This document shows, piece after piece, positions 1,751 to 41,598 of a stretch of 64,000 bases of DNA (position 1 is its first letter; each line of letters begins with the position of its first letter). The notes below the pieces were generated by a model. It was not told the DNA's origin. It worked only from the letters and a program-made list of their open reading frames with translations, and searched no databases. Source of the DNA: a virus. Taxonomy: Duplodnaviria > Caudoviricetes. The stretch lies in the IMG/VR virus record IMGVR_UViG_3300027914_001343, positions 64,001 to 128,000 of that record, one strand, 5' to 3'. A program made the position numbers and the translations under genes.

Positions 1751-3184
1751 TTAGAATTGATACTTCAATTCACCAGTTTCAGCGAACTGAGAGTTCGTGG
1801 TAAGAAGTTCATCAATAACGGCACCAAAAGAATCCGCCAGCTGCAGCGACAGGGAATCGTGTTCAGTAATAACCGGAGCGAACAACGCATCGCAAAACGT
1901 TGGCAACACGTAAGGCACTTGTTCGCTTCCTTCAATAGAAACCATGATTCTGGTATCGCCAAGCACATCAACAGACAAAGTCACAAAGTAATCAACTTCG
2001 TCGTTGTAGAACAAGTCACGCAAAACTTCCGTAGCAAAACGAATACGGAAAGTCTCAAGGTTCTCGGTCATGTCAATGTTACTGAAGGATTTGAAATCAC
2101 CAAGACGAACCTGACTCATACCCGTGCTATTGAGATTGGAAGCATCGAAATTCAGCTTTGTAATCCCAACATCCATCATGATTGCAGCCGCTGTCTGCGC
2201 CAGCACAGTTGCTACTTGAGTGTGGCGATCAGCAACGTGCCAGTACTCAGTAGTCCCGCTTTCATGGAAATTACTTGCGGCCCGTGTTGCGCCGCTCATA
2301 ATACCTGAGCTATAAACACCTGGGCTCATCGCGTGCGGATCAAGCTGGAGCAGCTCATGGATAGTAAAGTAATTCGTCGGAGTCGGGTCACCCCGCAAGT
2401 TCATCAAAGCAGACATGAACGGATCTTGGCTGACGAGAGGATCTCGCATCATTTTCCTGGCTTCGGAAAGAACGTCATTACGCCCTTGGCCAAAATCTTG
2501 GGTAGCTTGAGCGGAACGATAACCTTCAAACACTTGCGCAGCATAACCACTAGCCACACTGTTTTGACGGCGGGACTTCATCGGAGTATTCCGAATAACG
2601 TTCCGCATATCCAACATACCGCCAGGAAGTTCGCCGAGTTCTTGTCGCGTCATCACGCTGTAAATATCTTGCGGTCGAATAGCGAACTCATTGGAACCGG
2701 AATTGATGCCACTCCAGTTGTTGTTAGCCAGGACATGGCTGTTGTCTCGCACAGTCAAATAACGCTGGCGACCAAGCGGAGTTTCGGCAATAGTCTCACG
2801 CGACTGGATGGTGGAGTTGATGTAAAATTCCATCCGTGGGTCGAGTGTACCATTCATGCTGACGCCGAAGTGATCACTATAACCAAGGATCGTCTGAACA
2901 CGCGTGCTGAAATCAGAGACATCCTGAAGCTCGAGCATGAAGCGCAAACGACGTTCGCCCCAACCGCCGATGATACCGATTTCAGATTCCGGTTGTGCAC
3001 TCGGGCAAACAAGGCGATTAGCAACTCCAGCCAATGTATTGGCAGTAATCTGACCAGTACGATCAATAACTTCTGCCAGCGCATTCATCCCGTCATGATC
3101 GAGAATCGATTGGTAGGGGCGACGATACTGCTTGTTATACGTGCCAGTTTCGATCACGACGAATTTAGTTACGCGAATTGTCAT
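1751..3184 (-). CDS. picA: Phage-nucleus protein importer PicA/Imp1 (phiKZ gp69-like)
   Basis: N-terminus ETGTYNKQYRRPY and the GGWGERRLRFMLE motif; follows the sigma-like subunit; ATG 3184 has GGAGG RBS. Confidence 0.75.
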   Translation of the reverse strand: MTIRVTKFVVIETGTYNKQYRRPYQSILDHDGMNALAEVIDRTGQITANTLAGVANRLVCPSAQPESEIGIIGGWGERRLRFMLELQDVSDFSTRVQTILGYSDHFGVSMNGTLDPRMEFYINSTIQSRETIAETPLGRQRYLTVRDNSHVLANNNWSGINSGSNEFAIRPQDIYSVMTRQELGELPGGMLDMRNVIRNTPMKSRRQNSVASGYAAQVFEGYRSAQATQDFGQGRNDVLSEARKMMRDPLVSQDPFMSALMNLRGDPTPTNYFTIHELLQLDPHAMSPGVYSSGIMSGATRAASNFHESGTTEYWHVADRHTQVATVLAQTAAAIMMDVGITKLNFDASNLNSTGMSQVRLGDFKSFSNIDMTENLETFRIRFATEVLRDLFYNDEVDYFVTLSVDVLGDTRIMVSIEGSEQVPYVLPTFCDALFAPVITEHDSLSLQLADSFGAVIDELLTTNSQFAETGELKYQF

Positions 3185-4736
3185 TGCTATATTTCCTCCG
3201 TTCTGCAATTTCAATTACCAGCTCAGCCAGCTTGATTTTAATGTCCTGCGGTACAGCAAAACGCATGCTCTGGACACCTGCTTCATTGGGATTCACTTCA
3301 TTAATCCACGCACGAGGAAGTGTAAGACGCCAGTCATGATGACTCACCAGCGTCTCCATTTCTTCGATAGCTTGCACAGCGTGGTTCTTTTGTTTAAGCC
3401 TTTCGGCCTTTCTTGACTTCCGAATGAATGGATAAAGAAGATCGAGCTTCTCTACCATTTCACGAGGAATTCGTGCGCGTGTTTCCACACCAAACATTGC
3501 TAGCTCTTCACTGCTTTGTATTGTTTTAGCGGTTGCCACAGCAGCTAGTTCGGGGAAACCCCAATGCCACAGAACAGCCTGCGTAATACCAAGCATAGTC
3601 AAGACACAGCTCTTGCTGATGTAGTAGATGCCGCGCGGCGGAATTACATCTGCGGTAACCCACTGTGCAAGCGTTAGCTGAACATCCTGAATTTCTTCAG
3701 TAGCTAGAGCTTGAACAGATGCAAGGCTTTCACGAACCAAGCTTTCAGGAATGTCAGGCGCAATCCGCTTTGCGGCTTCCATACTGTAGTTCTTGACGTA
3801 GTGTTCGATTACCGAGATATCACCTTCCGGGATTTCTTGGCGGGCTTTATAACCTTCCAACTTCGAAAGATTGTTTTCACCCTCGCCACCATCCGGAACA
3901 ATCTTGGGACTCACTGTCCCCATGAATTGCCCGTCGGTTCCTTTGATTTTCTGGACTACGTACCGGTACGCCGATGTAACCAAATGAGGTTCGTTCGGAT
4001 TACCACTTACGTCACCTGGGCCAATACGTCGAACAATCACCAGCGCCAGCACCCATGTAGGATAGTTCTCGGAAGAAATCCCACCGAGGATAGCGGACGT
4101 GTTGGCTTTCTCGCGCCCAAGAAGGCCCTCGATATAAATACGAAGACGCTCGAGTGGCTGACTGTAATCGCCTGTTTGGAAACCTTCGTAAAGATTTGTC
4201 TGAACAAGCAGTTGGAAAGCGTAATATTCTTTCCAGACCGTACCTGTTTCTCGATGGGTCTGCGCGATAAACTCACCCCAGACTGGGAGTACCGGACGCA
4301 GCAAAACAGCCAGTGTCACCAGACGTCGATAATCTTCTCGCACGTAAGTACGATCGCGTGTCCCTACCAAAACTTCTTCTGAGCTAAACTCATTAATGAA
4401 ACCTTCCGGAATAAGAACATTGCAACGCAAGAAGACATGATCGAAGACATCTTCGAAAGGATGCAGTTCATAAAGCCGCTTGAGGATTGGCCTGATAGTC
4501 TGCATGAGCACAACTTGATCAGATACTGCGCTTTCAAACACTTCCTTGATTTCGCAATAGATGTCAAAAATTTCTTTCTGTTTTGTTTCGGGGAGACTGG
4601 CCCAAAAGCTATTGATCTCATTAAACATGTTTGCCTCGGCGGTTCTTGCTTTTTCGAGGAAACGCATGGACCAGGTAATTTCAGCTTTCCCGTGCCGAAC
4701 TACACAAGTACCACTATCCTTGTTTTCTAAGAGCAT
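3165..4736 (-). CDS. Non-virion RNA polymerase sigma-like subunit (phiKZ gp68-like)
   Basis: 523 aa; motifs FNEINSFW, RTYVREDY, PVWGEFI; lies between the ChmC-like and PicA-like genes. Confidence 0.75.
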   Translation of the reverse strand: MLLENKDSGTCVVRHGKAEITWSMRFLEKARTAEANMFNEINSFWASLPETKQKEIFDIYCEIKEVFESAVSDQVVLMQTIRPILKRLYELHPFEDVFDHVFLRCNVLIPEGFINEFSSEEVLVGTRDRTYVREDYRRLVTLAVLLRPVLPVWGEFIAQTHRETGTVWKEYYAFQLLVQTNLYEGFQTGDYSQPLERLRIYIEGLLGREKANTSAILGGISSENYPTWVLALVIVRRIGPGDVSGNPNEPHLVTSAYRYVVQKIKGTDGQFMGTVSPKIVPDGGEGENNLSKLEGYKARQEIPEGDISVIEHYVKNYSMEAAKRIAPDIPESLVRESLASVQALATEEIQDVQLTLAQWVTADVIPPRGIYYISKSCVLTMLGITQAVLWHWGFPELAAVATAKTIQSSEELAMFGVETRARIPREMVEKLDLLYPFIRKSRKAERLKQKNHAVQAIEEMETLVSHHDWRLTLPRAWINEVNPNEAGVQSMRFAVPQDIKIKLAELVIEIAERRKYSNDNSRN

Positions 4737-4823
4737 GCAAAACTCCTTGTTTAAAGTTTATTACTACTACTAGACACATTTGTAATATGTAACTATTTTT
4801 ATCTTGAATAGCTTAGGGCAAAA

Positions 4824-4853
4824 AGTCTAGGGTACAAGGAAGTACCCTAGACT
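4824..4853 (-). terminator. Intrinsic terminator after the chmC-like gene
   Basis: AGTCTAGGGTAC/GTACCCTAGACT inverted repeat with U-tract on the minus strand. Confidence 0.8.
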
Positions 4854-4866
4854 AGTTAGTTAGAAA

Positions 4867-5601
4867 TTAATACGGAAGATCCTCTTCAAAATTGTCAAAG
4901 CCGCCGCCAGCAGGTTTGGTGGATTCACCGCCGCGATTACCGCCGCCCTGATAACCACCGCCGCGGTTGCCACCATTACCACCGCCATTGCGGTTGTTGA
5001 ATTCGCGCGGTTCCGGTTCCTTGTATTCAGTAATCAGCAGATGCGGAATCATTGCCTGAATGAGCTTCACCCAAGCGCGAGCGAACATGACAGATACTTC
5101 GCCTTCAGACAACTGTTCGCCAGTGCCGTGATAGAAGACATGGAATTCGTCGGTTCCGAAACAGAACTTGATTGCGGTGCGCTTGTACTTGGTGACAGTA
5201 ATCCAGACACGACCCTTCGCGTCTTTGCCGACCAGGATTTCGGTATCGTTGACGAGACCTTCCGGCTTACCACCGCCCGGCTTGAAGTTCGGACGCTTGT
5301 TTTCGATCTTGAATTTGATTTCCGGCTTTTCTTCTGTCGGACGGAACGCACACGCCTGCTCGATCATGTTGGTAATGGCAATGGCCACACTCGCGTTGAT
5401 GCGGGCACTGATAGCACCCTGGTCGCGTTCAGCTTCAATGCCGTTGTAGACAACAATGCGCGGGTTGTTGTCGTAGATATTGATCATCAGAGAGGCATTC
5501 TTGCCTTCGCTGTTCTTGGTGTAGAGCTTGAGCTTCTGATCGTCCAGAGCATTTTTCTTGCGTTGCGGACGATTGCTGTTATTACCATTAAAGCCAGCCA
5601 T
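4867..5601 (-). CDS. chmC: ChmC-like phage-nucleus nucleic-acid-binding protein (phiKZ gp67-like)
   Basis: NNPRIVV and VGKDAKGRVWI motifs; N/G/R-rich tail (NRGGGYQGGGNRGG) ending in acidic FEEDLPY; immediately upstream of the gp68-like gene; ATG 5601 with GAGG. Confidence 0.7.
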   Translation of the reverse strand: MAGFNGNNSNRPQRKKNALDDQKLKLYTKNSEGKNASLMINIYDNNPRIVVYNGIEAERDQGAISARINASVAIAITNMIEQACAFRPTEEKPEIKFKIENKRPNFKPGGGKPEGLVNDTEILVGKDAKGRVWITVTKYKRTAIKFCFGTDEFHVFYHGTGEQLSEGEVSVMFARAWVKLIQAMIPHLLITEYKEPEPREFNNRNGGGNGGNRGGGYQGGGNRGGESTKPAGGGFDNFEEDLPY

Positions 5602-5652
5602 GATTAATTTCCTCGTGAAGTCGTACAACAAATGTACGGGATGTGTAAAAAT

Positions 5653-6504
5653 TTAAACCAGGATCTCTTTAAGAATATCTCTGGCGTAAGGGTTCTTTAT
5701 CTGCTCGATCGAGAAGACAATTTTGTCGCGAGTAGTGACTGGCGTCCACCTGTATTTGGTGGCGACGTCTATCAAGTCTTTTCTCAACTTAATATCCATC
5801 GGTCTGAAAGTCTCAGAGTCACCAAAAACCTGTAAAAAATCTTCTCTGAATGGAATCATTGAAAGTTCTTTACCGCCAGTGTACTTCGTGTACCATTGGG
5901 CGTATTTCTTTACTGCACCCGTATGGGATTCAAGCAATACCAAATCTTCAAACTCACGGCGCGAACACAGATCAAACGCGTAATGCGTGAGAATCATTGC
6001 TTTCATGTTCTTGTCGCTGTTTTCAAGTTTAAGCCTGAAAAACTTCAATTCGTAAGGTGCGCGTTCTTTGTCGTACCACTTTTGAATAAAACCGATCGTC
6101 TGAGTCTGAATAGCCGTGTATTCTTTTTGCTTAGGTGTGTTATCCATCCTAGGCACTGCTTTACGATACCTTACTTCAAGACTAGCGTAATCGCTTACGT
6201 AAAACACTACCTTGGTAAGACTTCCGCTATGCTCCTTAACAATAGCGGCAATCTGGTCCATCTCCTCGAGGATTGCTTTCGCTAATTCCTCAGCCACCAC
6301 ACTGCCTTGGTCATCCTTAGACAATGACCCCATCATGTTTCTAAACAGAGTCCTGACATTCACCCAGAACAACCGGATTTGTTTAATGGGTATTTCTTTG
6401 TGTTGTACTTCAGGATGAATACCTGTAGCAGATTCCAATGCCAAACTTGTTGCGACCGAGAGAGGGTACTGACCCATCTCTCGTTCATTGAGTGCATTGA
6501 ACAT
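5653..6504 (-). CDS. Conserved core protein (phiKZ gp66-like)
   Basis: 283 aa; REMGQYPLSVATSLALES, WVNVRTLFRN and LLESHTG motifs; synteny. Confidence 0.7.
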   Translation of the reverse strand: MFNALNEREMGQYPLSVATSLALESATGIHPEVQHKEIPIKQIRLFWVNVRTLFRNMMGSLSKDDQGSVVAEELAKAILEEMDQIAAIVKEHSGSLTKVVFYVSDYASLEVRYRKAVPRMDNTPKQKEYTAIQTQTIGFIQKWYDKERAPYELKFFRLKLENSDKNMKAMILTHYAFDLCSRREFEDLVLLESHTGAVKKYAQWYTKYTGGKELSMIPFREDFLQVFGDSETFRPMDIKLRKDLIDVATKYRWTPVTTRDKIVFSIEQIKNPYARDILKEILV

Positions 6505-10839: not shown

Positions 10840-10860
10840 TTGCTTTCCTCCGCCAGTTTT

Positions 10861-10928: not shown

Positions 10929-12851
10929 TCAGCGGCTGTAGTGACGGCCGTTGTAAACACCGAAGGTACGGGAAGCACCACCGCGACCGAAGTTGTTGCT
11001 GAAGACGCCGGACGGAGTCGAGCTCATCATCATGTTGCGGGCGAAGCTGCTGGTGGAACGCTGAGTGCCTTGGATGTCGCCGAAGTTCTGGACCAGAGGA
11101 GCATGGAACTTCGAAGCCGCGAACGCCTGAGCGATTGCACCCATCTGCACCGGGTTGAAGGTAATGCGACGCTGCCAGCCTTCGAAGACGGCGGACGGGC
11201 ACAGATGCTGGATGATCTGGCGACGACGGCTCAGGTGCACCTTCACGTCGTTCGTTTCGTTCACCATGGTTTCGCTGAATTCAGCGATGGTTTCCGGATT
11301 GCGATCGCCGGTCAGGTTCGCTACCGCGAGGTAGTCGAAGTGCGCCAGAGACTTCTTGGTGCCGTCACTGAAATGGCCCTTGTAGATACGGGCGGTTTCC
11401 AGTGCAATTGGCTGGGTCGGGTCGTAGAACTTGCTGAAGTTGCCACCGGTCAGTGCATCCATGGAAGCCACGAAGTATTCGACGGCGTCCGGACGGTTTT
11501 GAGCCAGCGGGATCAGCAGACCGGACATCCAGGATTGCGGACCAACTTCATCCACATCGGCCTGGATAACCAGACCCGGATGCATGAAGGCCGAAACCAG
11601 GTTCACCAGTTCGTTCGGCTGCACGTTCAGAGCAGAACCCCAACCATTCGGGTTCTTTTCCAGGTTGGCTTCGTAACCGATGCCGCCGATGTCATGCATG
11701 TCGGAACCATTCATGCTGCGCGGCAGGAACGCACGCACCCAGTTGTTGTTGTCGGACAGGACGTTCACGCTGGCCAGGGCCAGGAGATAGGCATTGAACG
11801 AAGCAGCATCTTCGGTATCCAGCCGGGTAATCACGAAGGACGGCAGGTACAGTTGGGTCGGGATCTGGGTATTCGGCGCTTGCAGCTGGTACGGATTGGA
11901 CGGTTCTGCAGCCGGGCTCCAGATCAGATCCATGTAACCGTACAGTGCAGTGATGCGCTTCATGCGATCAGCGGCGATACCGGTAGTGTTCTGGTTCTTC
12001 GGACGAGCGTAGAGCTCAACACAAACATCACCACGAACAGCAGAGCCGACTTCATCGAAGACATCGTCATTGCCGAAGGTGATGCGTGTGGACAGCGTGG
12101 CATCTTCCTTGGCATCCAGGATGCAAACATCCGGCTCACCGGCGACCTGCGAAATGGCGACGTGAATGGAAGCCAGGGCATTGGCGGCGGTAGAACGAGT
12201 GAGGTCGTCATCGGCGAAGTTGTAGTCGGCCGGGATCACGCAAGCATCGCAATCCAGGAAACCGGCGTTCTGGAAGTTCGCCATGAAGGTTTCGAAGATC
12301 ACTTCACGCATTGCGTCGTCGTAGGCATCGGACGCGAACTGCGGGATTTCAACTTGCTGACCATTGATGGTCTCGACCTTGGCAGCAAAGGCTTGGGTGG
12401 AGCCAGCCAGCAGCAGGGTGTGGACGCCGACGCCCAGTTCCGGTTCTTGTACACGGAAAGCAGCAACCATAACAGCCGAGATTGCGATGCGGCTGTTATT
12501 GTTCATGTCGATCGGGATCAGGCGAATTTCGTAATCCGGGGAAGCAGACTCGTACTGCTTCTTCAGGGCAGCCATCATCTTGACGACGGCTTCGCCAGAG
12601 GTGTTGCGGGACAGCGGAGCAGTGGTGGAACGGCAGCCGCTGATGAAGGAATGCTGGTGACGTTGTTGCATTTTAACTTCCTTGTTTTTGGGTTGTTGTT
12701 TGGTTTGGGAAACAGCTTCTTGTGCGGCTGCCGTACTTGCGGCACGCACACGGTTTTTCTGACTGGCTGCAAGCTTGGAGGCTACACCAGCATTCGCCAT
12801 TGCCGAAGCCATAGCGGTTTGTTCTTTTCCATCTTTACTGTGATCAATCAT
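10929..12851 (-). CDS. chmA: Chimallin, the major phage-nucleus shell protein (phiKZ gp54-like)
   Basis: 640 aa with strong codon bias; directly upstream of nvRNAP beta' and divergent from the gp52-like gene next to DNA polymerase (canonical chmA locus); extended N- and C-tails; early-promoter-like motif upstream. Confidence 0.85.
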   Translation of the reverse strand: MIDHSKDGKEQTAMASAMANAGVASKLAASQKNRVRAASTAAAQEAVSQTKQQPKNKEVKMQQRHQHSFISGCRSTTAPLSRNTSGEAVVKMMAALKKQYESASPDYEIRLIPIDMNNNSRIAISAVMVAAFRVQEPELGVGVHTLLLAGSTQAFAAKVETINGQQVEIPQFASDAYDDAMREVIFETFMANFQNAGFLDCDACVIPADYNFADDDLTRSTAANALASIHVAISQVAGEPDVCILDAKEDATLSTRITFGNDDVFDEVGSAVRGDVCVELYARPKNQNTTGIAADRMKRITALYGYMDLIWSPAAEPSNPYQLQAPNTQIPTQLYLPSFVITRLDTEDAASFNAYLLALASVNVLSDNNNWVRAFLPRSMNGSDMHDIGGIGYEANLEKNPNGWGSALNVQPNELVNLVSAFMHPGLVIQADVDEVGPQSWMSGLLIPLAQNRPDAVEYFVASMDALTGGNFSKFYDPTQPIALETARIYKGHFSDGTKKSLAHFDYLAVANLTGDRNPETIAEFSETMVNETNDVKVHLSRRRQIIQHLCPSAVFEGWQRRITFNPVQMGAIAQAFAASKFHAPLVQNFGDIQGTQRSTSSFARNMMMSSTPSGVFSNNFGRGGASRTFGVYNGRHYSR

Positions 12852-12922
12852 TTTGCTTTTTTTTCCCTTGTTTATACACTACGTAGTGTACAGTTAAACG
12901 AAACACGATTCCCTGTACACCA

Positions 12923-14264: not shown

Positions 14265-16418
14265 TTAATACTGGTCAGACACCAACCGCGTCAGTTTATC
14301 GTTGGAACAATAATACCCGAGTGTTTCAAGGATCAGATAGAAAACAGAGCAGGTATCAGCCACAATCTTTCTAACGTTCATAGCTGACAATACTTCTGTT
14401 GGAATACCATTTTGCAAAATAGCTTGCTCAGGTAATTGCAAGAGCCCAATGTATTTCTTGTTGTACTTTTGCATCCACGCAGCCATACGGTTAGCCAGAT
14501 CTCGATCCTCCAAACTATCCAGCCAGGTTTTGGTCTTGCTCGGCGTATCAAGATCGGTGGCGAACTTCAGACACATATACGGCGGTTCTTGAATACTACC
14601 GTACTTAGGAGAGAACACATCTTCCCACATCGAGTAGAAAATGTAATTTGACTCCATAGGTCCCTTAGTGTAAGAAGCTGCTTGTTTAATCTGGCCCTTA
14701 CGGAAATACTCAGAACCTCCATTACGGATATCAGAATACACACTACGTTCGATATCGGCAACACGAGTGAGCATTGCTTTCAGACTGATCTTCTTACCAG
14801 CAATAACGTCGTTCATGATATCGGTCATCATTGTGGTTGCTTGTTCCATGATTCGGACAGGTGCATTAGAAGACTTCAGGTGAACGCCCTTGATCTCCTT
14901 TTTGTACTTGTCAAACAAATTACCTTCTTGGCAACCGATCAACGCAAAATAATGTTTAGCTACCTGCGTAGGAACGAAGACGTCAAACTTGAATTCGTTC
15001 TTCATGGCTATCTGATGGATACGTGCGTTCTCGATACCAAAGTTGGCTGACATTCGTGCCAACAAATGGATAATAGACTGAGCCGATAACCAAATCATTG
15101 CAGCTGCTACTGAATTAGCTTCTTGGTCAAACTTGATGCTACCACAATACCACTCCACCCAGTCTTGCACAGTAAAGATAGTAGAGTCAGTGTCTGACGT
15201 AAGCGCAGCGTGGCGGATGCTTTCAGGAAAGTAGGCAACCGAAGCAGGCATGTTATCAGTAACCCAGAACGCTTTGATAAGCAATCCAAATTCTTTAACA
15301 GTATCTGCAATACCCAGAGCAGTGAGAGCTACGTTGGCACGAGCTTCATCCGTTGCGTTCTTACCGTCGTCAGCCATACCAGGAATAACGTATAAACGTT
15401 TACCTTTCATATCTGGCGAACATATCTGCACAGCAAGATGTACATTATCTTCCGGCTGGGCTTTTAGGACTGCTACGGCATTCTCAATCTCACCTGTCTT
15501 ATAGGAAGAGATACCCTTGATGAATTTACCGACAAGTTCTGGATTGAGCTGCTTCAGGTGGTACAGATCGCCCACATATACAAAAGCTGCGCGCTGGATT
15601 GGTGTCAGGCGTTCTACCAGCTTTTTGATCCGCATCATGCGGTCACGGCTGCGCCAATATTTCTTCGTAGAGAACTTGATGCATTCCATCACTTCGTCCA
15701 CTACAGGGTATTTAATCCCATAGACGTCGATAGCTTGTTGGATCATCTCGTAATCAACATTGTTAATAATAGAAACGATGTTGTACTCAACGATGTCAGG
15801 AGACCAGTAATGTCTATTCCCGCTAAGGAACTTTTCATTATTGGCGTTACCGTAACCGGATGTTGACCGGCAATTGGATGTTAACGTACTGTGCGCAGTT
15901 CGGTTGTACAGCGGCGTTGATGGGGAGACGTGCGCACCAGAGATTGCGTTATTGCCAAGCTTTCTGTTGTTCTGTTCATTCTTCTTAATCGAATACAGAA
16001 CAACATCTTTTGCCATCTCAGCAGCAAACATTGCCTTCTTAGCTACGCCCCGCGCCTTCACGTTACCATCGATGTAGTTTACGAGAAGAGATTGAATTTT
16101 GTGTGGCGGAATGTACGTAGTCAAAGTAGGTGCTATGAGCTCCTGATTTTCCAAAGCATCTTGCAGGTATTGACCTAGCGTTCCTTCTTTCTTCACGCGG
16201 TCACCATTGTCTTCCCGTTCCAAGTAAATAATCCTCGGGTCTCTGAAGGGAAAACGACCGTCCTTTGAGATTGCATGTTCTACAAAAGCTCTGCATTCTT
16301 CAATAGGCTTATTTGTCATTGCGCTCAAATAAGTAGCAGCATCTCTCTTGTAAAACTCAAAGATCCTAAGATCCCGGCGGTATTCGTTCTTTTCGAGTAC
16401 GAATGGGTTTGCTTCCAT
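14265..16418 (-). CDS. Family B DNA polymerase, polymerase-domain subunit (phiKZ gp50-like)
   Basis: Motif C LTSDTDSTIF; motif B-like KLGNNAISG; KHYFA and EIKGVHL; ATG 16418 with GGAGG. Confidence 0.88.
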   Translation of the reverse strand: MEANPFVLEKNEYRRDLRIFEFYKRDAATYLSAMTNKPIEECRAFVEHAISKDGRFPFRDPRIIYLEREDNGDRVKKEGTLGQYLQDALENQELIAPTLTTYIPPHKIQSLLVNYIDGNVKARGVAKKAMFAAEMAKDVVLYSIKKNEQNNRKLGNNAISGAHVSPSTPLYNRTAHSTLTSNCRSTSGYGNANNEKFLSGNRHYWSPDIVEYNIVSIINNVDYEMIQQAIDVYGIKYPVVDEVMECIKFSTKKYWRSRDRMMRIKKLVERLTPIQRAAFVYVGDLYHLKQLNPELVGKFIKGISSYKTGEIENAVAVLKAQPEDNVHLAVQICSPDMKGKRLYVIPGMADDGKNATDEARANVALTALGIADTVKEFGLLIKAFWVTDNMPASVAYFPESIRHAALTSDTDSTIFTVQDWVEWYCGSIKFDQEANSVAAAMIWLSAQSIIHLLARMSANFGIENARIHQIAMKNEFKFDVFVPTQVAKHYFALIGCQEGNLFDKYKKEIKGVHLKSSNAPVRIMEQATTMMTDIMNDVIAGKKISLKAMLTRVADIERSVYSDIRNGGSEYFRKGQIKQAASYTKGPMESNYIFYSMWEDVFSPKYGSIQEPPYMCLKFATDLDTPSKTKTWLDSLEDRDLANRMAAWMQKYNKKYIGLLQLPEQAILQNGIPTEVLSAMNVRKIVADTCSVFYLILETLGYYCSNDKLTRLVSDQY

Positions 16419-16480
16419 TAAGAACCTCCGTTTGTCTAATGGCAAAAGATAACTGAGGCCAATAAAAAAAAAAAGCGGCA

Positions 16481-16519
16481 TAAAAAAGAAAAAGGTCGAG
16501 GGGATGGCAGTCCCCTCGA
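16481..16519 (-). terminator. Intrinsic terminator ending the ncRNA candidate
   Basis: TCGAGGGGA-CTGCCA-TCCCCTCGA then CCTTTTTCTTTTTTATGCC on the minus strand. Confidence 0.85.
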
Positions 16520-16821
16520 AATAACTCACAAATAGAGCAGAGCAAAAAGTTTCCAATAAGAAAACAACCATGAGGGACCATCAATAAATTCAGTAGAGAC
16601 AGCGGCTGATTCACCCAGGCCGAGCTTCATGGCGGGGTGCGGGAATCAGCCAGCTCAAGGCGAATGCGGTATTGGGAAAACAAGGAAACCCAATTTAGCA
16701 CAAATCGAATGAACCAGCCGCGTCAACCAGGCAACGTCCGCTCAAAGGAGGAAAGCGGAAAGTTAGAGTAGCTGCCAGAGCCAAGCTGCGTACTCATTGC
16801 AAAGATCCTGGTGTTCTCTGC
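16483..16821 (-). ncRNA. Candidate ~340-nt structured non-coding RNA with anti-RBS loops
   Basis: No credible gene. TATG late-type start at 16824-16821; 5' GCAGAG complementary to CTCTGC near the 3' end; stems at 16604-16651, 16671-16694 and 16737-16759; own terminator at 16496-16519. Confidence 0.6.
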
Positions 16822-16851
16822 ATATTATTAGTAACAACACAATAAAAAAAA

Positions 16852-17250
16852 TTATTTTAACGCTATTGTGTAATCGTTGTACCCACCAACAGCGCAGAAA
16901 TTCTTGAAGCGCTGGATATCATCAGCAACTGCATTTTTGACAACAAGAGTCAGAGTTTGGGCACCCAGCTGGACGATCGTTTCTGTCTTGATCCATGGCA
17001 GTCCGATGATACGTGTGTTGCCGTTTTGGAAGCGCACTTTTACATAGTCGTAACTATAAGGATCATCTTCTACTGTGTCTTTCGACAAGTAAGTATAGAC
17101 TTGAGCATGGCGAGCCACAATATCGATTTGTTCTGCTGCTGCTTCGGGGTCCAAAATAGAGACCACGGTGACACCAGCAAATTCATCCCCGATAATTGCA
17201 GTAGGGTAGATGCTAAAGTTGTATGTCTTCCGTAATTCGAGTGTGCTCAT
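16852..17250 (-). CDS. Conserved hypothetical protein (phiKZ gp49-like)
   Basis: 132 aa; YNFSIYPTAIIG, DDPYSYDY and IIGLPWI motifs; GAGG RBS. Confidence 0.7.
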   Translation of the reverse strand: MSTLELRKTYNFSIYPTAIIGDEFAGVTVVSILDPEAAAEQIDIVARHAQVYTYLSKDTVEDDPYSYDYVKVRFQNGNTRIIGLPWIKTETIVQLGAQTLTLVVKNAVADDIQRFKNFCAVGGYNDYTIALK

Positions 17251-17257
17251 CTTAACC

Positions 17258-17635
17258 TCAAAATGGTAAAAGCAAAATATCATTCCCATGCATTTTTGAG
17301 TACGTGTATGGCATTACCAACTCTTGCTCATCATCATAAACAAAAATATCCAGGCGTTCAATTTCGCAAAAAATAAACATGCCAAAAGACTGTACTAGGT
17401 CCCTGACACGCGGTAGCGTGTCAGGTGTTGGCCTAGTTTTCATACGATGCAGTTCTGGCAGGGTTTTGACATAACAACTAAATGCGGCTGGGTCTGCTGT
17501 AATGCCTGTAAAAATCTGCATTATAATTTCTTCAGCATCACTCTCTTCAATTCCAGCTAACTCTTTCAAACTATTCTTTAAGAAACTTACTCTGGCTGAT
17601 GTGTCTAACAAAATACATGGTTTCATGGTAGCCAC
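17258..17635 (-). CDS. Hypothetical protein, member of putative paralogue array
   Basis: 125 aa, overlaps the upstream gene, GGAG RBS. Confidence 0.7.
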   Translation of the reverse strand: MATMKPCILLDTSARVSFLKNSLKELAGIEESDAEEIIMQIFTGITADPAAFSCYVKTLPELHRMKTRPTPDTLPRVRDLVQSFGMFIFCEIERLDIFVYDDEQELVMPYTYSKMHGNDILLLPF

Positions 17636-20167: not shown

Positions 20168-20450
20168 ATACTTTTGGTACACCCTCTATTTGGGAAATGG
20201 TCGGGTTCCTAGATCCATTTCGACTGGGGTCGGTCATTTGCAACTTTCACTATGTTGACATTCCGCTTTTAGCGACTCGGCCTCAAGTACTTGAGTTGTT
20301 TCTTTCCCCGTCCCTATCCGGTGGATGGGACTTTCTGCTTGTCGCGTTGTAATGCACCCCTGTAGTTAAACAGTTCGGCCAACGCCCGGTTGTGCGCGGC
20401 GTGACTTACCTAACTTGGCTTACAGGCACCTGATACCTGTGCTTTCATTA
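20168..20450 (-). ncRNA. Candidate structured RNA (phuZ 3' region or independent sRNA)
   Basis: About 300 ORF-free nt with nested stems (20422-20440, 20310-20331, 20282-20295, 20272-76/20341-45, 20226-30/20356-60, 20194-20221); a G-U pair favours the minus strand. Confidence 0.5.
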
Positions 20451-20473: not shown

Positions 20474-21502
20474 TTAAAGAACGAAACCCATGTCATTCGT
20501 AGAGTCATCCTTATTGAGGATACCGCCACGTTTCATACGAGCATTTTCACGTTCCTTGATATCAGCCAGGAATGCATTCAAACTCCTGGCCTGGTCTTGC
20601 AACATACCATAGGTGGTAATGAAGTGCAGAGGAGCTGCCTTAACGACTTCCTTGCTGATTTCATCCGGCAGGAGGCCGAGGCACTGGTACTCGAGAACGT
20701 TGGTGATGCCTTTGACGGCTTCACAACCTTCGCTGGTGCCCAGAGTGATGGCGCTGACTGCTTCGCCAAAGCTTTCACTGTAGCTGTCGTCTTTTTCCAG
20801 CATGACCAAACCAGCCAGGCAAGCTTCGTACGACGTAGTCTTGGTGAAGTTCAGCCAGTTCTGCAGGTCCTTGCTGTCGAGCTTCTGGTTTTGGCCAGAG
20901 AACAACATCGCCAGGCCAGTCACGACATCTTCGATCATTTGGTCGGCGGCCGGTTGCGGCAGCTTGTCGGACATTTGCAGATAGAACAGGATCACCGGCT
21001 TGTTGGTCTTGTCAACCAGACCTTCGTAGGTCTTCAGCGTGTTGAGGGTGTTTTCAGCAAACAGGCGATTGGTAATGGAACCAACAGCGATTGCGATAAC
21101 CGGCTCATCACGGAGCAGAAGTTCACGGGCCAGGATCGGAGCGATAACAGAGCCAGAGCCGCCGGAGGCCGAGCTGATCACGATGTTCAGGTTACCAGGC
21201 TTGAAACGTTGCAGGATCGCCTTATCGGCAGCGGCGATGTCAGTAAAGACGTCACGACGGATCTTGCCGGCGCCTTCTTTTTCATCGCCAGTGTTGATGT
21301 CCTTGATCTGGTAGAAACGATCTTCCGGGATCACCTTGCGGTTACTGTCAGAGGTGTCGACAAAGCAAACATCGATGCCTGCAAAGCCTGGATTGACAGT
21401 ATTGCGGTATTTGTCGAGACGAGCACCGATGCTTGTACCAGCGCCCCCGCAGGCGTAGATACGAACAACGTTTTCGGATGTCCCATTGTTGCTTTCAATC
21501 AT
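20474..21502 (-). CDS. phuZ: Phage tubulin PhuZ
   Basis: ACGGAGTSIG, GAGKIR, tubulin signature SASGGSGS, T7-like LDSKD, PhuZ-type C-tail ILNKDDSTNDMGFVL. Confidence 0.95.
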   Translation of the reverse strand: MIESNNGTSENVVRIYACGGAGTSIGARLDKYRNTVNPGFAGIDVCFVDTSDSNRKVIPEDRFYQIKDINTGDEKEGAGKIRRDVFTDIAAADKAILQRFKPGNLNIVISSASGGSGSVIAPILARELLLRDEPVIAIAVGSITNRLFAENTLNTLKTYEGLVDKTNKPVILFYLQMSDKLPQPAADQMIEDVVTGLAMLFSGQNQKLDSKDLQNWLNFTKTTSYEACLAGLVMLEKDDSYSESFGEAVSAITLGTSEGCEAVKGITNVLEYQCLGLLPDEISKEVVKAAPLHFITTYGMLQDQARSLNAFLADIKERENARMKRGGILNKDDSTNDMGFVL

Positions 21503-21585
21503 TTTGCTTTTCCTTGTTTATGTTGGTGTTGAAAAGATACTCACACACAAGATCTACAGTGCTGAGTAAAATTTAACCGTTTGTT

Positions 21586-23518: not shown

Positions 23519-24010
23519 TTGGAAAGTCCGTTGTATGGTTGTTTGTGTTCTGAATACAGACAATCACAACAAAGACATAAAAAAGAAAATTTTCTAAAAA
23601 ATAAAAAAATATTTTTATATCAGTGTTATGATTAAGGAGTATTTTCCTAGTATCTATTAAAGGGGGCCCCCTCCGGGCCCCCTCCCTAGATAGAGTTCTA
23701 GGTTCAGTTCGTCACGCCCCCGCGTTCCTCACAGGTTTTAGTTGCATACGATAAGTATGCTAGTAAAAAAATATTTTTGAAGTAATGTTTTAGAACGAAC
23801 TATGGGGCCTTTACGGGCCCCTTATAGTGAGAAGAGTGTATAAAACCTATAAAGTAAGGGAATAATAGAGGCAGGCTTTTACGGCCTGCCAATAATCTAC
23901 TTTATGTAAGAAAAAAATAAAAGAGAAAATATTCCATAGTTTAACGGGACCGGTCGGCGCAGCTGCCGGGCTGATACTATGAGACTTTGAATAACCGCAA
24001 GGAGATCAAC

Positions 24011-40631: not shown

Positions 40632-40707
40632 TTTTTAATGCTTTCCTTGTTTGGAGTGTTAAAGGACAGGGCACCGAATAGTGCCCTGGTACTACAAAGC
40701 CGGCAGA

Positions 40708-41166
40708 TTAATCAGCCAGCAGGGTTGCTGCACGAGCCTTGGCGTCTTTCAGGATTTCATTGAACTCGCCGCGTTTGGCAACGGCGGCACTACGAACTTT
40801 CATGACGATGCTGCCGTGCGAGACGACTTGTTCGCCGGGCTTGGCGGGATTTTGACTGACGGTCTTGCGGTTGTACACACCTTCGTACTTGTCACCACCA
40901 GTGCCGTTGATGGTGACGCTGAAAGTGTTCAGTTTGCCGTTCTTTTTCATTTCGTCCGGCGCGACCGTGTCAAGTGCCAAAGCGGCAGCAGCCACGATAC
41001 TGGCACGGTAGTTATTCGATAGAGCTTCGGACTCAGCAGTCAGGCCTTCCGGCAGATTGCGGACGTAGAAGTCCTTATCGGCAACGATCGTGCCTGCAGT
41101 TTTGTCGATGGTGCCGTTCTTGATCAGGTCTTCAGCGAGTTTTTTGGTTTCGGGAGAAACTGCCAT
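40708..41166 (-). CDS. Conserved hypothetical protein
   Basis: 152 aa, biased codons, AAAACAAGGAAA RBS, hairpin at 40668-40687 downstream. Confidence 0.75.
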   Translation of the reverse strand: MAVSPETKKLAEDLIKNGTIDKTAGTIVADKDFYVRNLPEGLTAESEALSNNYRASIVAAAALALDTVAPDEMKKNGKLNTFSVTINGTGGDKYEGVYNRKTVSQNPAKPGEQVVSHGSIVMKVRSAAVAKRGEFNEILKDAKARAATLLAD

Positions 41167-41169
41167 GAT

Positions 41170-41598
41170 TCATTTCCTTGTTTTAGAGTTGCGATTATTT
41201 CGGTCACCATCCCAGCGATTCCGCACGGAATAGAAACCAGTTGTTTCTGCCGCTGGCGCAGCAGGAGTTGTTACGATCCTGGCTTTCTTAAGAACAACAC
41301 TAGAAACCAGGTAACCTTGCACTGCTGCTGCGCCATTATTCACGGCTTGTGCAACAGCTGACTGCCCTACAAGAACAGTCATCTTTCCTTCGCGCTTATA
41401 AAACATCACGAGGCCTTCCGGATTAATTTCTGAGTCCTTGAAACCAGTGACGTAACCAGTACTGAGGTCGTTAAGCTCAGAAACACTCACTTCAATCTTG
41501 GGCATCGTCGGAACAAGACCGATGAGCTTCTTGTAGTCATGTACGACATCAGCAAAATACAGTACTTTACCAGACATCCGATTCTCCTTATTCTGCAT
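41170..41598 (-). CDS. Hypothetical protein with basic tail
   Basis: 142 aa (alternative ATG 41577 with AAGGAG); LVSSVVLKKAR motif. Confidence 0.7.
   Translation of the reverse strand: MQNKENRMSGKVLYFADVVHDYKKLIGLVPTMPKIEVSVSELNDLSTGYVTGFKDSEINPEGLVMFYKREGKMTVLVGQSAVAQAVNNGAAAVQGYLVSSVVLKKARIVTTPAAPAAETTGFYSVRNRWDGDRNNRNSKTRK

What the first reader, a model, noticed from the sequence alone, without database searches (positions are those of the whole stretch)
16483..16821. Structured ncRNA candidate whose loops are antisense to the ribosome-binding sites of phage-nucleus and spindle genes
Seen: a ~340-nt gene-free unit between the gp49-like gene and DNA polymerase. On the minus strand it starts at a TATG (+1 G at 16821), its 5' GCAGAG can pair with CTCTGC near the 3' end, it has several stems, and it ends in its own terminator. 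Loop 1 (16677-16688) reads UUUCCUUGUUUU, the complement of the AAACAAGGA leader: 12/12 for gene 41166, 11 nt for phuZ and gene 40631, 9 nt for the gp68-, gp70- and gp59-like genes and gene 63643, and 8 nt for chmA. Hairpin 2 (16737-16759) displays UCCUCCUUU, like the 16S rRNA anti-Shine-Dalgarno. Its GCUUUCCUCC is a 10-nt complement of the nvRNAP beta' RBS (10842-10851) and 8 nt of the picA RBS. A U-G closing pair favours the minus strand. A third segment, UUGUUUUCUU, complements the gp62-like leader. Established: TATG is the phiKZ late promoter consensus. Inference: a late-expressed trans-acting RNA that silences or handles early/middle mRNAs. If the plus strand were transcribed instead, the loops ACAAGGA and AGGAGGA would resemble a CsrA/RsmA sponge. 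Anti-SD sequences match many mRNAs generically, so specificity is unproven.
Basis: partly seen in the sequence, partly recalled or inferred. Interest (0 to 1): 0.9.

Follow-up and report, generated by a model that had tools for sequence, protein, structure and literature searches.

The report
Jumbo-phage RNA with anti-ribosome-site loops
A nucleus-forming giant phage carries, just before its DNA polymerase gene, a folded non-coding RNA of about 340 bases whose exposed loop is the exact mirror of the ribosome-docking motif used by the phage's own shell and RNA polymerase genes; it probably controls their translation, but no transcript has yet been seen.

Summary
Window 16821-16483 (minus strand) is an ORF-free unit bounded by TATG and an intrinsic terminator. 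It matches no Rfam family.

It is homologous to the equivalent gap of Burkholderia phage FLC9 and about 10 uncultured relatives. A covariance model built without the window finds it full-length (27.9 bits, E 2.6e-6). The fold is kept by compensatory changes: 19 of 51 pairs, 0 of 500 shuffles. G-U pairs (63, against 4 A-C cells) put the RNA on the gene strand.

Loop B (UUUCCUUGUUUU) is 99% unpaired. Its 9-nt core is invariant across relatives. It complements AAACAAGGA, which occurs 14 times on the coding strand. The closely related AAACAAGG sits 7-14 nt before a start codon in 15 of 16 copies: chimallin, PhuZ, two RNAP beta-like genes and others.

The motif is enriched only in the three phage genomes tested whose RNA carries CCUUGUUU (14, 33, 25 copies), and in none of eight relatives without it.

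Best reading: a trans-acting RNA that occludes these ribosome sites. Expression, timing and the sign of the effect are unproven. The third segment and the "late" timing are not supported.

This scan noted similar polymerase-upstream CU-loop RNAs earlier on other phage DNA (e1-5643359, e1-5524955, e1-329497).

The parts
16821..16824 (-). TATG motif, the putative nvRNAP-type promoter core, with G at 16821 as the presumed +1
   Evidence: Sequence. In phiKZ late promoters TATG has G as the start site (PMC4666361). The 5' end TATGCAGAGAA resembles RP12 TATGCAGAAAA. FLC9-type relatives have TCTG here, so promoter function is inferred only.
16483..16821 (-). Predicted non-coding RNA of about 339 nt
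   Evidence: ORF-free. MFE -112.2 kcal/mol, z -3.57. No Rfam match. Homologous to the FLC9-type RNA.
16816..16821 (-). 5' strand of closing helix P1 (GCAGAG)
   Evidence: Pairs with CUCUGC at 16542-16537 in the MFE and centroid folds. In relatives the purine-rich 5' end likewise pairs with a 3' pyrimidine-rich stretch in single-sequence folds. Not tested by covariation.
16537..16542 (-). 3' strand of closing helix P1 (CUCUGC)
16738..16758 (-). Hairpin A, whose loop UUCCUCCUUUG is a mimic of the canonical anti-Shine-Dalgarno sequence
   Evidence: Mean P(unpaired) of the loop is 0.82. FLC9-type relatives keep CCUCCUCC in a hairpin loop with different stems. Best duplexes are -12.9 kcal/mol with the RNAP-beta'-like leader at 10851-10842 and -10.4 with the polymerase leader.
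16707..16721 (-). 5' strand of the long helix (GCGGCUGGUUCAUUC)
   Evidence: Pairs with 16616-16602. This 15-bp helix is 100% paired in 9 sequences, with 6 pairs changed on both sides.
16602..16616 (-). 3' strand of the long helix (GGGUGAAUCAGCCGC)
16671..16694 (-). Hairpin B: stem AUUGGG/CCCAAU with loop UUUCCUUGUUUU (16688-16677), the complement of the AAAACAAGGAAA leaders
   Evidence: Mean P(unpaired) 0.99. UCCUUGUUU is invariant in all 10 aligned sequences. At least 9 nt of complement to 14 of 121 start regions, against 0.4 for shuffled loops. Duplex about -13 kcal/mol, against -5.4 for an E. coli-type 16S tail on the same leaders.
16549..16565 (-).
   Evidence: MFE fold. The segment is mostly paired (mean P(unpaired) 0.31). 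Target matches are not above shuffles.
16482..16519 (-). Intrinsic terminator: 9-bp stem (6 G-C pairs), loop CUGCCA, then a U-run
   Evidence: The equivalent terminator is present in all relatives.
16476..16483 (-). TTATGCCG, a promoter-like motif for the DNA polymerase gene that overlaps the terminator's U-run
   Evidence: Invariant in window, FLC9, RP12 and FLC1-1B. Present before the polymerase gene in most of 80 related loci. Follows a terminator-like hairpin at about 10 of its 17 copies on the gene strand of this genome (my reading of the flanks).
41173..41184 (-). Predicted target: leader AAAACAAGGAAA of the 152-aa gene 40708-41166 (12/12 with loop B)
   Evidence: The FLC9-type orthologue keeps AAACAAGGAAA.
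21512..21519 (-). Predicted target: AAACAAGG leader of phuZ (20474-21502)
   Evidence: phrog_4733, tubulin PhuZ, E 1.4e-76. The orthologue in G001 lacks the motif.
12866..12873 (-). Predicted target: AAACAAGG leader of the first start of the chimallin gene (10929-12851)
   Evidence: phrog_4795, nuclear shell protein, E 3.4e-81. The orthologue in G001 keeps the motif.
12680..12687 (-). Predicted target: second AAACAAGG leader, before the in-frame internal start of the chimallin gene (ATG 12671)
40645..40652 (-). Predicted target: AAACAAGG leader of the 302-aa gene 39723-40631

Best explanation
The unit encodes a structured non-coding RNA of about 340 nt, read from the gene (minus) strand. It runs from about 16821 to the terminator at 16519-16482. 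It belongs to an undescribed RNA family placed between the gp49-like gene and the DNA polymerase gene in one branch of the nucleus-forming jumbo phages (FLC9-type and uncultured relatives).

A closing helix and a 15-bp long helix hold out two single-stranded pyrimidine-rich loops.

Loop B (UUUCCUUGUUUU) pairs over 9-12 nt with the leader motif (A)AAACAAGGA(A). That motif forms the ribosome-binding site of a set of non-structural phage genes: chimallin, PhuZ, two RNAP beta-like subunits, a Nudix-like and a dUTPase-like protein, and several conserved unknowns. Loop A (CCUCC) pairs with ordinary strong Shine-Dalgarno sites.

Pairing covers the Shine-Dalgarno sequence and is predicted to be far more stable than the 16S tail on these weak AAGGA sites. 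The RNA should therefore keep 30S subunits off these mRNAs and lower their translation once it accumulates. This would act as a shut-off or feedback on the nucleus and transcription gene set.

Shown here: the RNA fold, its conservation, its strand, loop exposure, complementarity, and the co-occurrence of loop and motif.

Inferred: that it is transcribed, that it pairs in vivo, that the effect is repression, and when it acts.
For: Family and fold:
1. No ORF and no Rfam family.
2. The same place in FLC9, RP12, FLC1-1B and many IMG/VR contigs is an ORF-free gap of 300-600 nt. It ends in a terminator followed by TTATGCCG.
3. Homology: nhmmer hits FLC9 at E 0.0044. Model R2, built from 8 FLC9-type sequences without the window, hits only 16593-16734 (minus) in the window, over the full model length, at 27.9 bits and E 2.6e-6.
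4. Covariation in the long-helix domain: 96.1% of cells paired and 19 of 51 pairs changed on both sides, with 0 of 500 shuffles reaching this. Slid controls give 40-48% paired.
5. Strand: 63 G-U cells against 4 A-C cells, and a terminator on the minus strand only.

Loop and motif:
6. Loop B has P(unpaired) 0.99. UCCUUGUUU is invariant across window and relatives, while the mean column identity of that 10-sequence alignment is 75%.
7. AAACAAGGA occurs 14 times on the coding strand and once on the other strand; that single copy is the RNA gene itself.
8. 15 of 16 AAACAAGG copies lie 7-14 nt before the start of an ORF of at least 117 aa. The genes were identified.
9. At least 9 nt of complement to 14 of 121 start regions, against 0.4 for shuffled loops. 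Duplexes are about -13 kcal/mol, against -5.4 for a 16S-type tail.

Co-occurrence across phages:
10. The motif count on the gene strand is 33 in FLC9 and 25 in G001, against 1-2 on the other strand. In RP12, FLC1-1B and G002-G007, which lack CCUUGUUU in the RNA, it is 0-4, the same as the reversed-pattern control.
11. Reciprocally, AAAGGAAAG (the complement of the RP12-type loop) occurs 6-10 times in the RP12-type phages and 0-1 times in the FLC9-type phages and in this genome.
12. The most frequent RBS 7-mers are ACAAGGA and AACAAGG only in G000 and G001.
13. The motif is kept in the leaders of orthologous genes in G001 at 30-58% protein identity: chimallin, one RNAP beta-like gene and the g41166 homologue exactly; the other RNAP beta-like gene as AACAAGGAAA; and the 431-aa gene's homologue about 35 nt upstream of its start.

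Feasibility:
14. Antisense oligomers placed at or near the SD or AUG of phiKZ chmA block ChmA synthesis (PMC12571901).
Against:
- The co-occurrence of loop and motif rests essentially on one clade (window plus FLC9-type) against the others, so it is close to a single evolutionary event.
- The contig of L041, whose RNA also shows CCUUGUUU, has only one coding-strand AAACAAGG in 26 kb.
- In 4 of 8 genomes the loop matches the commonest RBS word only partly.
- phuZ and two other orthologues in G001 lack the motif.
- FLC9-type relatives have TCTG instead of TATG, so an independent promoter is uncertain.
- Any CU-rich loop matches SD sites generically. Hairpin A's matches are only modestly above shuffles.
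- An RNA that silences chimallin and RNAP genes would harm the phage if made early, and its timing is unknown.
Confidence: 0.5

Rival explanations
1. The pairing is the same but the outcome is positive or protective. By binding the AAACAAGGA leaders, the RNA would shield them from a nuclease or a host repressor such as an Hfq-type A-rich-site binder. Alternatively it would hold or escort these mRNAs, so that the gene set is favoured and not silenced.
For: All the pairing evidence applies equally. The target set contains essential, presumably highly expressed genes (chimallin, RNAP subunits) whose canonical SD pairing is weak at -5.4 kcal/mol. Strong repression of these genes looks costly.
Against: The duplex covers the SD itself. 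In known cases, and with antisense oligomers on phiKZ chmA, this blocks translation (PMC12571901). No feature was found that would release the site for the ribosome.
Confidence: 0.15
2. A protein decoy or sponge. The CU-rich loops would imitate the 3' tail of 16S rRNA, or another pyrimidine-rich site. They would titrate a host or phage protein that binds such RNA, for example ribosomal protein S1, a 16S-tail-binding maturation factor, a nuclease or a defence factor.
For: Several pyrimidine-rich loops sit on one scaffold. Loops in some relatives look very like the 16S tail, for example UUACCUCCUUUC in L025. This multivalent layout recalls sponge RNAs.
Against: It does not explain why the loop's non-SD extension (UUGUUU) matches a leader extension (AAACAA) that is enriched only in the phages carrying it. 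No candidate protein was identified.
Confidence: 0.12
3. A cis-acting part of a neighbouring mRNA: a long structured 3' UTR of the gp49-like gene, or, through terminator read-through, a regulatory leader of the DNA polymerase gene whose CU loops mask the polymerase RBS.
For: The position directly upstream of the polymerase gene is conserved in many relatives. FLC9-type relatives lack TATG at the 5' end. Hairpin A can pair with the polymerase SD at -10.4 kcal/mol.
Against: A strong terminator followed by its own conserved TTATGCCG motif separates the RNA from the polymerase gene. In RP12, FLC1-1B and L041, one or two genes lie between the RNA and the polymerase gene. Loop B fits other genes' leaders far better than the polymerase leader (-13 against -6.6 kcal/mol).
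Confidence: 0.1
4. The plus strand is transcribed, and the loops ACAAGGA and AGGAGGA act as a CsrA/RsmA-type sponge.
For: On the plus strand both loops carry GGA in an A-rich context. The plus-strand fold is also more stable than shuffles (z -2.95).
Against: Of the conserved pairs, 63 cells are G-U on the minus strand and would be A-C mismatches on the plus strand, against 4 the other way. Pairing is 96.1% against 82.6%, although the structure was predicted on the minus strand. There is no plus-strand terminator or promoter-like site. All neighbouring genes and signals are on the minus strand.
Confidence: 0.02
5. A DNA-level element next to the polymerase gene, such as a replication origin or a packaging or recombination site, and not an RNA gene.
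For: A fixed position beside the DNA polymerase gene.
Against: Compensatory changes, including many G-U pairs that work in RNA on one strand only. Promoter-like and terminator signals frame the unit. No repeats typical of origins were noticed in the sequence.
Confidence: 0.03

Closest known systems
Base-pairing sRNAs with C/U-rich loops that occlude Shine-Dalgarno sites (Staphylococcus aureus RNAIII, RsaE/RoxS type)
   Same: Structured RNA that displays pyrimidine-rich single-stranded loops on stable stems. The predicted action is pairing with the purine-rich ribosome-binding site of several mRNAs, which blocks initiation (general mechanism from my own knowledge; the abstract of PMC10433868 states the principle for RoxS).
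   Different: - No sequence or structure match to any Rfam family.
- Encoded by a virulent jumbo phage of Gram-negative hosts, not by a bacterium.
- The seed is U-rich with a 5-nt extension beyond the SD, matched to a phage-specific leader word.
- The predicted targets are the phage's own core genes.
Unnamed polymerase-upstream CU-loop RNAs of other chimalliviruses noted earlier in this scan (e1-5643359, e1-5524955, e1-329497)
   Same: Same genomic place (a gene-free stretch before the DNA polymerase gene of a nucleus-forming jumbo phage). Folded RNA of 200-470 nt with pyrimidine-rich anti-SD-like loops. I saw the same layout myself in FLC9-type, RP12-type and many IMG/VR loci.
   Different: These are AI notes on other genomes, not publications, and I could not compare sequences. 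Model R1 (built with the window) gives full-length matches, beyond the window and its seed lineage, only in two distant members, L229 and L211; model R2 (built without the window) re-finds the window and L229 full-length. The other clades share place and loop type but not a demonstrable common fold.
Antisense oligomers directed at the RBS of phiKZ mRNAs (PMC12571901)
   Same: Short antisense pairing at or near the SD or AUG of chmA, nvRNAP or picA mRNAs blocks synthesis of that protein in a nucleus-forming phage. This is the same site and the same kind of target genes as predicted here.
   Different: Synthetic peptide-conjugated oligomers added from outside, each with one target. Here it would be a natural RNA encoded by the phage itself, with one loop fitting a shared leader motif of about 15 genes.
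sRNA candidates of phiKZ and 201phi2-1 (sRNA005, upstream of tail gene gp182/gp277; PMC11512511)
   Same: Small RNA candidates conserved by position among jumbo phages.
   Different: - Different locus (5' UTR of a tail gene), size (<250 nt) and sequence.
- At the gp49/polymerase junction, 201phi2-1 has what reads as a small protein-coding unit and PA1C has only a 181-nt gap. Neither shows CU-loop hairpins.
CsrB/RsmY/RsmZ protein sponges
   Same: One scaffold that displays several copies of a short motif in hairpin loops.
   Different: The motif on the transcribed strand is CCU/UCC, not GGA. The GGA version would need the plus strand, which the G-U pattern and the terminator argue against.

Membership tests
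FLC9-type polymerase-upstream RNA (unnamed family defined here from FLC9 and IMG/VR relatives) | Lies on the gene strand between the gp49-like gene and the DNA polymerase gene, and ends in a terminator followed by TTATGCCG | tested here: met
FLC9-type polymerase-upstream RNA (unnamed family defined here from FLC9 and IMG/VR relatives) | Full-length match to a covariance model of the long-helix domain built without the window | tested here: met
   Model R2: window 16593-16734 (minus), model positions 1-196 of 196, 27.9 bits, E 2.6e-6. It is the only hit in the window.
FLC9-type polymerase-upstream RNA (unnamed family defined here from FLC9 and IMG/VR relatives) | 15-bp long helix kept by compensatory changes | tested here: met
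   100% of cells paired, with 6 pairs changed on both sides. The window reads GCGGCUGGUUCAUUC / GGGUGAAUCAGCCGC.
FLC9-type polymerase-upstream RNA (unnamed family defined here from FLC9 and IMG/VR relatives) | Hairpin B inside the long helix displays UCCUUGUUU | tested here: met
   Invariant in all 10 aligned sequences.
FLC9-type polymerase-upstream RNA (unnamed family defined here from FLC9 and IMG/VR relatives) | A 5' hairpin displays CCUCC | tested here: met
   Window 16758-16738; FLC9-type relatives show CCUCCUCC. MAFFT did not align the two hairpins column for column, so homology of this hairpin is by position and content only.
Any Rfam 15 family | Score at or above the family's gathering threshold | tested here: not met
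   0 matches in the whole window. At E up to 10 only chance-level hits appear (snoRNA models; CrcZ at 12.8 bits against a threshold of 95).
SD-occluding base-pairing sRNAs (functional class, RNAIII/RsaE type) | Exposed pyrimidine-rich seed complementary to the ribosome-binding sites of several mRNAs | tested here: met
   Loop B P(unpaired) 0.99. At least 9 nt of complement to 14 of 121 start regions, against 0.4 for shuffles.
SD-occluding base-pairing sRNAs (functional class, RNAIII/RsaE type) | Expressed as a discrete RNA that pairs with its targets and changes their translation | not testable with these tools
No transcriptome of a phage carrying this RNA was found in the literature searches.
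CsrB/RsmZ-type sponge | Repeated GGA motifs in loops of the transcribed strand | tested here: not met
   GGA is on the plus strand only. The conserved structure, the G-U pairs and the terminator are on the minus strand.
phiKZ-type late transcription unit | TATG with G as +1, recognised by the non-virion RNAP, and late timing | tested here: inconclusive
   TATG is present at 16824-16821, and the consensus is confirmed in PMC4666361. However, TATG alone is not sufficient in phiKZ (same paper). TATGC-type motifs also precede the polymerase gene and other genes here, and FLC9-type relatives have TCTG.

The most novel reading that the evidence does not exclude
The RNA might be an adaptor instead of a repressor. 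It would act as a trans-acting, phage-encoded 'second anti-Shine-Dalgarno'. Its conserved scaffold would dock on the 30S subunit or on a phage factor. Loop B would then recruit the AAACAAGGA-led mRNAs (chimallin, RNAP subunits), whose pairing with the host 16S tail is weak. This would give the phage a private channel of translation initiation. A less extreme variant is that, once the resident phage has made its own early proteins, the RNA silences the same leaders of a superinfecting related phage.
Probability: 0.07. Interest if true: 0.95.

Novelty: new variant of a known kind. Interest (0 to 1): 0.78.

Why it matters
Nucleus-forming jumbo phages are studied intensively for how they separate transcription from translation, yet almost nothing is known about their post-transcriptional control. 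In the papers I read, the only positionally conserved sRNA candidate sits before a tail gene.

This finding offers a concrete, testable regulator-regulon pair. The regulator is a conserved RNA. The regulon is a conserved 9-nt leader word shared by the shell, the spindle (in this phage), RNA polymerase subunits and other core genes.

If the pairing is real, it would be a phage-wide translational switch acting on the genes that build the phage nucleus. It would also explain why a distinct ribosome-binding-site 'dialect' is maintained in this clade, and it would give a natural counterpart to the synthetic antisense knock-downs now used on these phages.

FLC9 is a cultured phage with a culturable host, so the tests are feasible.

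Tried and rejected
Searches that gave nothing:
- Rfam at the gathering threshold and at E up to 10: nothing.
- blastn of the gap against 50,697 phage records: no match.
- nhmmer against the first 84 loci: only FLC9 and L005, both weak.
- No supplementary tables of the 201phi2-1 paper are held.
- The metagenome scan found no relative closer than 59% polymerase identity, so the window-specific 5' domain (P1, hairpin A) could not be tested by covariation.
- Metagenome contigs of L211, L229 and L216 cannot be searched whole, so their motif counts are unknown.

Limits of the family model:
- Model R1 found no full-length member among the other polymerase loci of IMG/VR. It found only two weak ones in metagenomes (L229, L211). 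A common fold for all polymerase-upstream CU-loop RNAs is therefore not shown.

Tests that turned out uninformative or mixed:
- A loose scan for hairpins with CU-rich loops is uninformative: 81 on the sense strand against 106 on the antisense strand, and hundreds in the own genome.
- The 8 x 11 matrix of loops against start regions gave a clear own-genome signal only for distinctive loops (G000, G001, G003, G006). Long U-rich loops score best in the most AT-rich genomes regardless of origin.

Readings rejected:
- Small ORFs in the gap (34 aa and 82 aa on the minus strand, 44 aa on the plus strand), judging from the sequence and alignments: I saw no ribosome-binding site before them, they are not kept in relatives, and the variation is compensatory, not codon-like.
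- The plus-strand CsrA-sponge reading.
- The third segment as a functional site.
- An equivalent RNA in 201phi2-1 and PA1C. 201phi2-1 has what reads as a small plus-strand coding unit at that place, and PA1C has a 181-nt gap without CU loops.
Full report
WHAT IS THERE

The window comes from a 149-kb IMG/VR virus record. It is a divergent nucleus-forming jumbo phage: chimallin, PhuZ, multisubunit RNAP genes and a family-B DNA polymerase were identified with PHROGs. Its nearest cultured relatives are Burkholderia phage FLC9 and Ralstonia phages RP12 and FLC1-1B, at 53-57% identity over the polymerase N-terminus.

The finding lies between the gp49-like gene (16852-17289) and the polymerase gene (14265-16418), both on the minus strand. 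On that strand the gap reads as follows:
- TATG at 16824-16821.
- About 300 nt of G+C-richer sequence.
- A 9-bp terminator stem at 16519-16496 with a U-run.
- Immediately afterwards, TTATGCCG (16483-16476).

TTATGCCG is invariant in the four phages first compared and is present before the polymerase gene in most of 80 related loci. No sigma-70-type promoter and no plus-strand terminator were found. No Rfam family matches. The minus strand folds at -112.2 kcal/mol (z -3.6) and the plus strand at -100.5 (z -2.95).

Confirmed:
- Loop 1 (GGG-UUUCCUUGUUUU-CCC, 16691-16674).
- Hairpin 2 (CCGCUUUCCUCCUUUGAGCGG, 16758-16738).
- The GCAGAG/CUCUGC closing helix.
- The terminator.
- The listed complementarities: 12/12 for gene 41166; 11 nt for phuZ, gene 40631 and the internal chmA start; 8 nt for the first chmA start; 10 nt at 10851-10842.

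Not confirmed: the third segment lies largely inside a stem (mean P(unpaired) 0.31) and matches start regions no better than shuffled versions.

IT IS A CONSERVED, STRUCTURED RNA ON THE GENE STRAND

FLC9 has a 536-nt unannotated gap at the same place. RP12 and FLC1-1B have gaps of about 430 nt one or two genes further from the polymerase gene.

A pattern scan of IMG/VR for the loop-1 hairpin returned 27 stretches. Thirteen are FLC9-type copies of the whole element, and one more lies on the contig of L041.

Aligned with the window, the FLC9-type copies share:
- a purine-rich 5' end;
- a hairpin displaying CCUCCUCC;
- a 15-bp long helix;
- inside that helix, a hairpin displaying UUUCCUCCUUGUUU;
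- the terminator and the TTATGCCG motif.

In the long-helix domain (9 sequences), 96.1% of cells form standard pairs and 19 of 51 pairs carry changes on both sides. No one of 500 column shuffles reaches either figure. Sliding the 3' partners drops pairing to 40-48%.

A covariance model built from the eight FLC9-type sequences alone finds one place in the 64-kb window: 16593-16734 on the minus strand, over the full model length, at 27.9 bits and E 2.6e-6.

The conserved pairs contain 63 G-U cells, against 4 A-C cells that would be G-U on the other strand. The fold works at 96% on the gene strand and 83% on the opposite strand. The structure was predicted on the gene strand, which biases this count, but the size of the asymmetry, the terminator and the neighbouring genes all agree.

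Two more distant full-length members turned up in metagenomes: L229 (23.7 bits) and L211 (20.1 bits).

Other clades show an ORF-free gap at the same place with long-stemmed hairpins that display U-rich/CCU loops. These include RP12-type phages and L012, L015-L020, L023, L025, L031 and L046. An example is the 12-bp stem with UUUCCUCCUUUCU in L017. My models do not link their folds to this one. 201phi2-1 and PA1C have no such RNA at the gp49/polymerase junction.

THE LOOP MIRRORS A PHAGE-SPECIFIC RIBOSOME-BINDING WORD

In the 149-kb genome AAACAAGGA occurs 14 times on the coding strand and once on the other strand. That single copy is the RNA gene itself.

Fifteen of 16 AAACAAGG copies sit 7-14 nt before the start of an ORF of at least 117 aa. 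These ORFs are:
- chimallin (both candidate starts);
- PhuZ;
- two RNAP beta-like subunits;
- a Nudix-like and a dUTPase-like protein;
- conserved chimallivirus proteins of unknown function.

Loop B is unpaired in 99% of the ensemble. It has at least 9 nt of perfect complement to 14 of 121 predicted start regions. Shuffled loops give a mean of 0.4 and a maximum of 9 in 300 shuffles. An E. coli-type 16S tail reaches 9 nt on none of them.

Predicted duplexes are about -13 kcal/mol for loop B, against -5.4 for the 16S-type tail on the same leaders. The loop's UUGUUU part matches the AAACAA extension, which is not part of a Shine-Dalgarno sequence.

LOOP AND WORD GO TOGETHER ACROSS PHAGES

AAACAAGGA copies on the two strands (gene strand first where an orientation is evident):

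| Genome | Copies | Loop with CCUUGUUU? |
|---|---|---|
| FLC9 | 33 / 2 (one of the two is its own RNA gene) | yes |
| G001 (FLC9-type, 315 kb) | 25 / 1 | yes |
| RP12 | 2 / 0 | no |
| FLC1-1B | 2 / 1 | no |
| G002 | 2 / 1 | no |
| G003-G007 | 0-4 per strand, like the reversed-pattern control | no |

Conversely, AAAGGAAAG (the complement of the RP12-type loop) occurs 6-10 times on the gene strand of the three RP12-type genomes. It occurs 0-1 times in the FLC9-type genomes and in this one.

After fetching seven whole contigs, I found that the commonest RBS 7-mers are ACAAGGA and AACAAGG only in the window's genome and G001. Everywhere else they are AAAGGAA or AAGGAAA. In four of eight genomes the RNA's main loop contains the exact complement of the genome's commonest RBS word; in the other four the match is partial.

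Orthologous genes of the window's phage and G001 share 30-58% protein identity.
- Chimallin, one RNAP beta-like gene and the g41166 homologue keep the word exactly.
- The other RNAP beta-like gene keeps AACAAGGAAA.
- One further gene has the word about 35 nt upstream of its start.
- phuZ and two others have lost it.

Caveats. This is essentially one clade against the rest. In addition, the 26-kb contig of L041, which also has the loop, shows only one coding-strand copy of the word.

MECHANISM

Most likely the RNA is made from the gene strand and its loop B pairs with the AAACAAGGA leaders. Because the duplex covers the Shine-Dalgarno site and is much stronger than the ribosome's own pairing there, it should keep 30S subunits away. 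Loop A would do the same on ordinary strong sites.

That antisense pairing at this position suffices in such phages is shown by synthetic oligomers: those binding at or near the SD or AUG of phiKZ chmA block ChmA synthesis (PMC12571901).

A TATG start would mean transcription by the non-virion RNAP (PMC4666361). The RNA would then appear after the first wave of expression and feed back on the RNAP-beta-like and shell genes. This timing is inference only, for three reasons:
- TATG alone is not sufficient in phiKZ.
- TATGC-type motifs also precede the polymerase gene and other genes here.
- FLC9-type relatives have TCTG at this place.

RIVALS

- The same pairing with a protective or activating outcome.
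- A protein decoy that imitates the 16S tail.
- A cis-acting UTR.
- A plus-strand CsrA sponge.
- A DNA element.

The report sections give the evidence for and against each.

COMPARISON WITH WHAT IS KNOWN

It works like the C/U-rich-loop, SD-occluding sRNAs of Gram-positive bacteria, but it is not a member of any catalogued family. I found no paper describing it. The phiKZ/201phi2-1 sRNA candidate conserved by position is at a different locus.

Earlier notes of this scan describe similar polymerase-upstream CU-loop RNAs in other jumbo-phage genomes (e1-5643359, e1-5524955, e1-329497). These are unchecked AI notes, but they agree with what I saw in related loci.

- the strand assignment;
- the model-based link of the window to the FLC9-type RNA;
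- the definition of the leader word and its gene set;
- the co-occurrence of loop and word across eleven genomes;
- the retention of the word in orthologous leaders.

VERDICT

This is a real, conserved, structured phage RNA gene (about 0.9). It most probably acts by pairing with a phage-specific ribosome-binding word. About 0.5 goes to repression by pairing and 0.15 to the same pairing with a positive effect. Expression, timing and effect remain to be shown.

Noticed in passing
window 4745-4775 (minus strand), and G000:C1 about 63135-63180 (outside the window, L112): Two genes (the 523-aa phrog_3209 protein and an RNAP beta-like subunit) share the leader AAUAAACUUUAAACAAGGAGUUU. From memory it resembles the T7 gene 10 'epsilon' enhancer leader (UUAACUUUAAGAAGGAG). 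Both leaders are preceded by an AT-rich ACAUAUUA(C/U) box that may be an early-type promoter.
   Followed up: no
window 12866-12873 and 12680-12687 (minus strand): The chimallin gene has two in-frame candidate starts (ATG 12851 and ATG 12671, giving 640 or 580 aa). Each is preceded by the AAACAAGG word at normal spacing. Other first-reader notes (e1-5779604, e1-5779611) raised the same point.
   Followed up: partly
G000, gene strand; for example window 36229, 16483, and several places outside the window: TTATGC(C/T)G occurs 17 times on the gene strand. By my reading of the flanks, in about 10 cases it directly follows a G+C-rich terminator-like hairpin. This suggests a recurrent terminator-promoter unit in this phage, also seen before the polymerase gene of most relatives.
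   Followed up: partly
L116 (Pseudomonas phage 201phi2-1, NC_010821.1 42454-42997): The annotated gp82 lies on the minus strand. The plus strand, however, carries a terminator-TATG unit, a good RBS (GGAGUGAUACCAUG), an ORF of about 120 codons and a second terminator. The annotated gene may therefore be on the wrong strand.
   Followed up: no
window 4824-4853 (minus strand): An 11-bp-stem hairpin displays CUUCCUUG, again the complement of CAAGGAAG. It lies about 75 nt upstream of the AAACAAGGAG leader of the gene starting at 4736. It could be a terminator or a local anti-RBS element.
   Followed up: no
L102:2482-2531; L100/L111; L094; L093; L085/L087/L101: Other IMG/VR contigs hold the same hairpin-loop word outside a recognisable polymerase context. 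An example is GGCCGCCCGGG-UUUCCCUCCUUGUUU-CCCGGGCGGCC in the 8.4-kb contig of L102 (17.7 bits with R1, local match). Some may be chance matches and others unrelated RNAs with the same loop.
   Followed up: no
L002 (RP12) 3460-6161; L003 (FLC1-1B) 2365-5284: In RP12-type phages a gene of about 605 aa lies between the gp49-like gene and the RNA gap, and one or two small genes lie between the gap and the polymerase gene. The RNA gene is therefore not tied to the polymerase promoter region.
   Followed up: no
window 20168-20450 and 23564-24010: Other first-reader notes flag two further non-coding, hairpin-rich stretches in this window (after phuZ, and a 450-bp block). I did not examine them.
   Followed up: no
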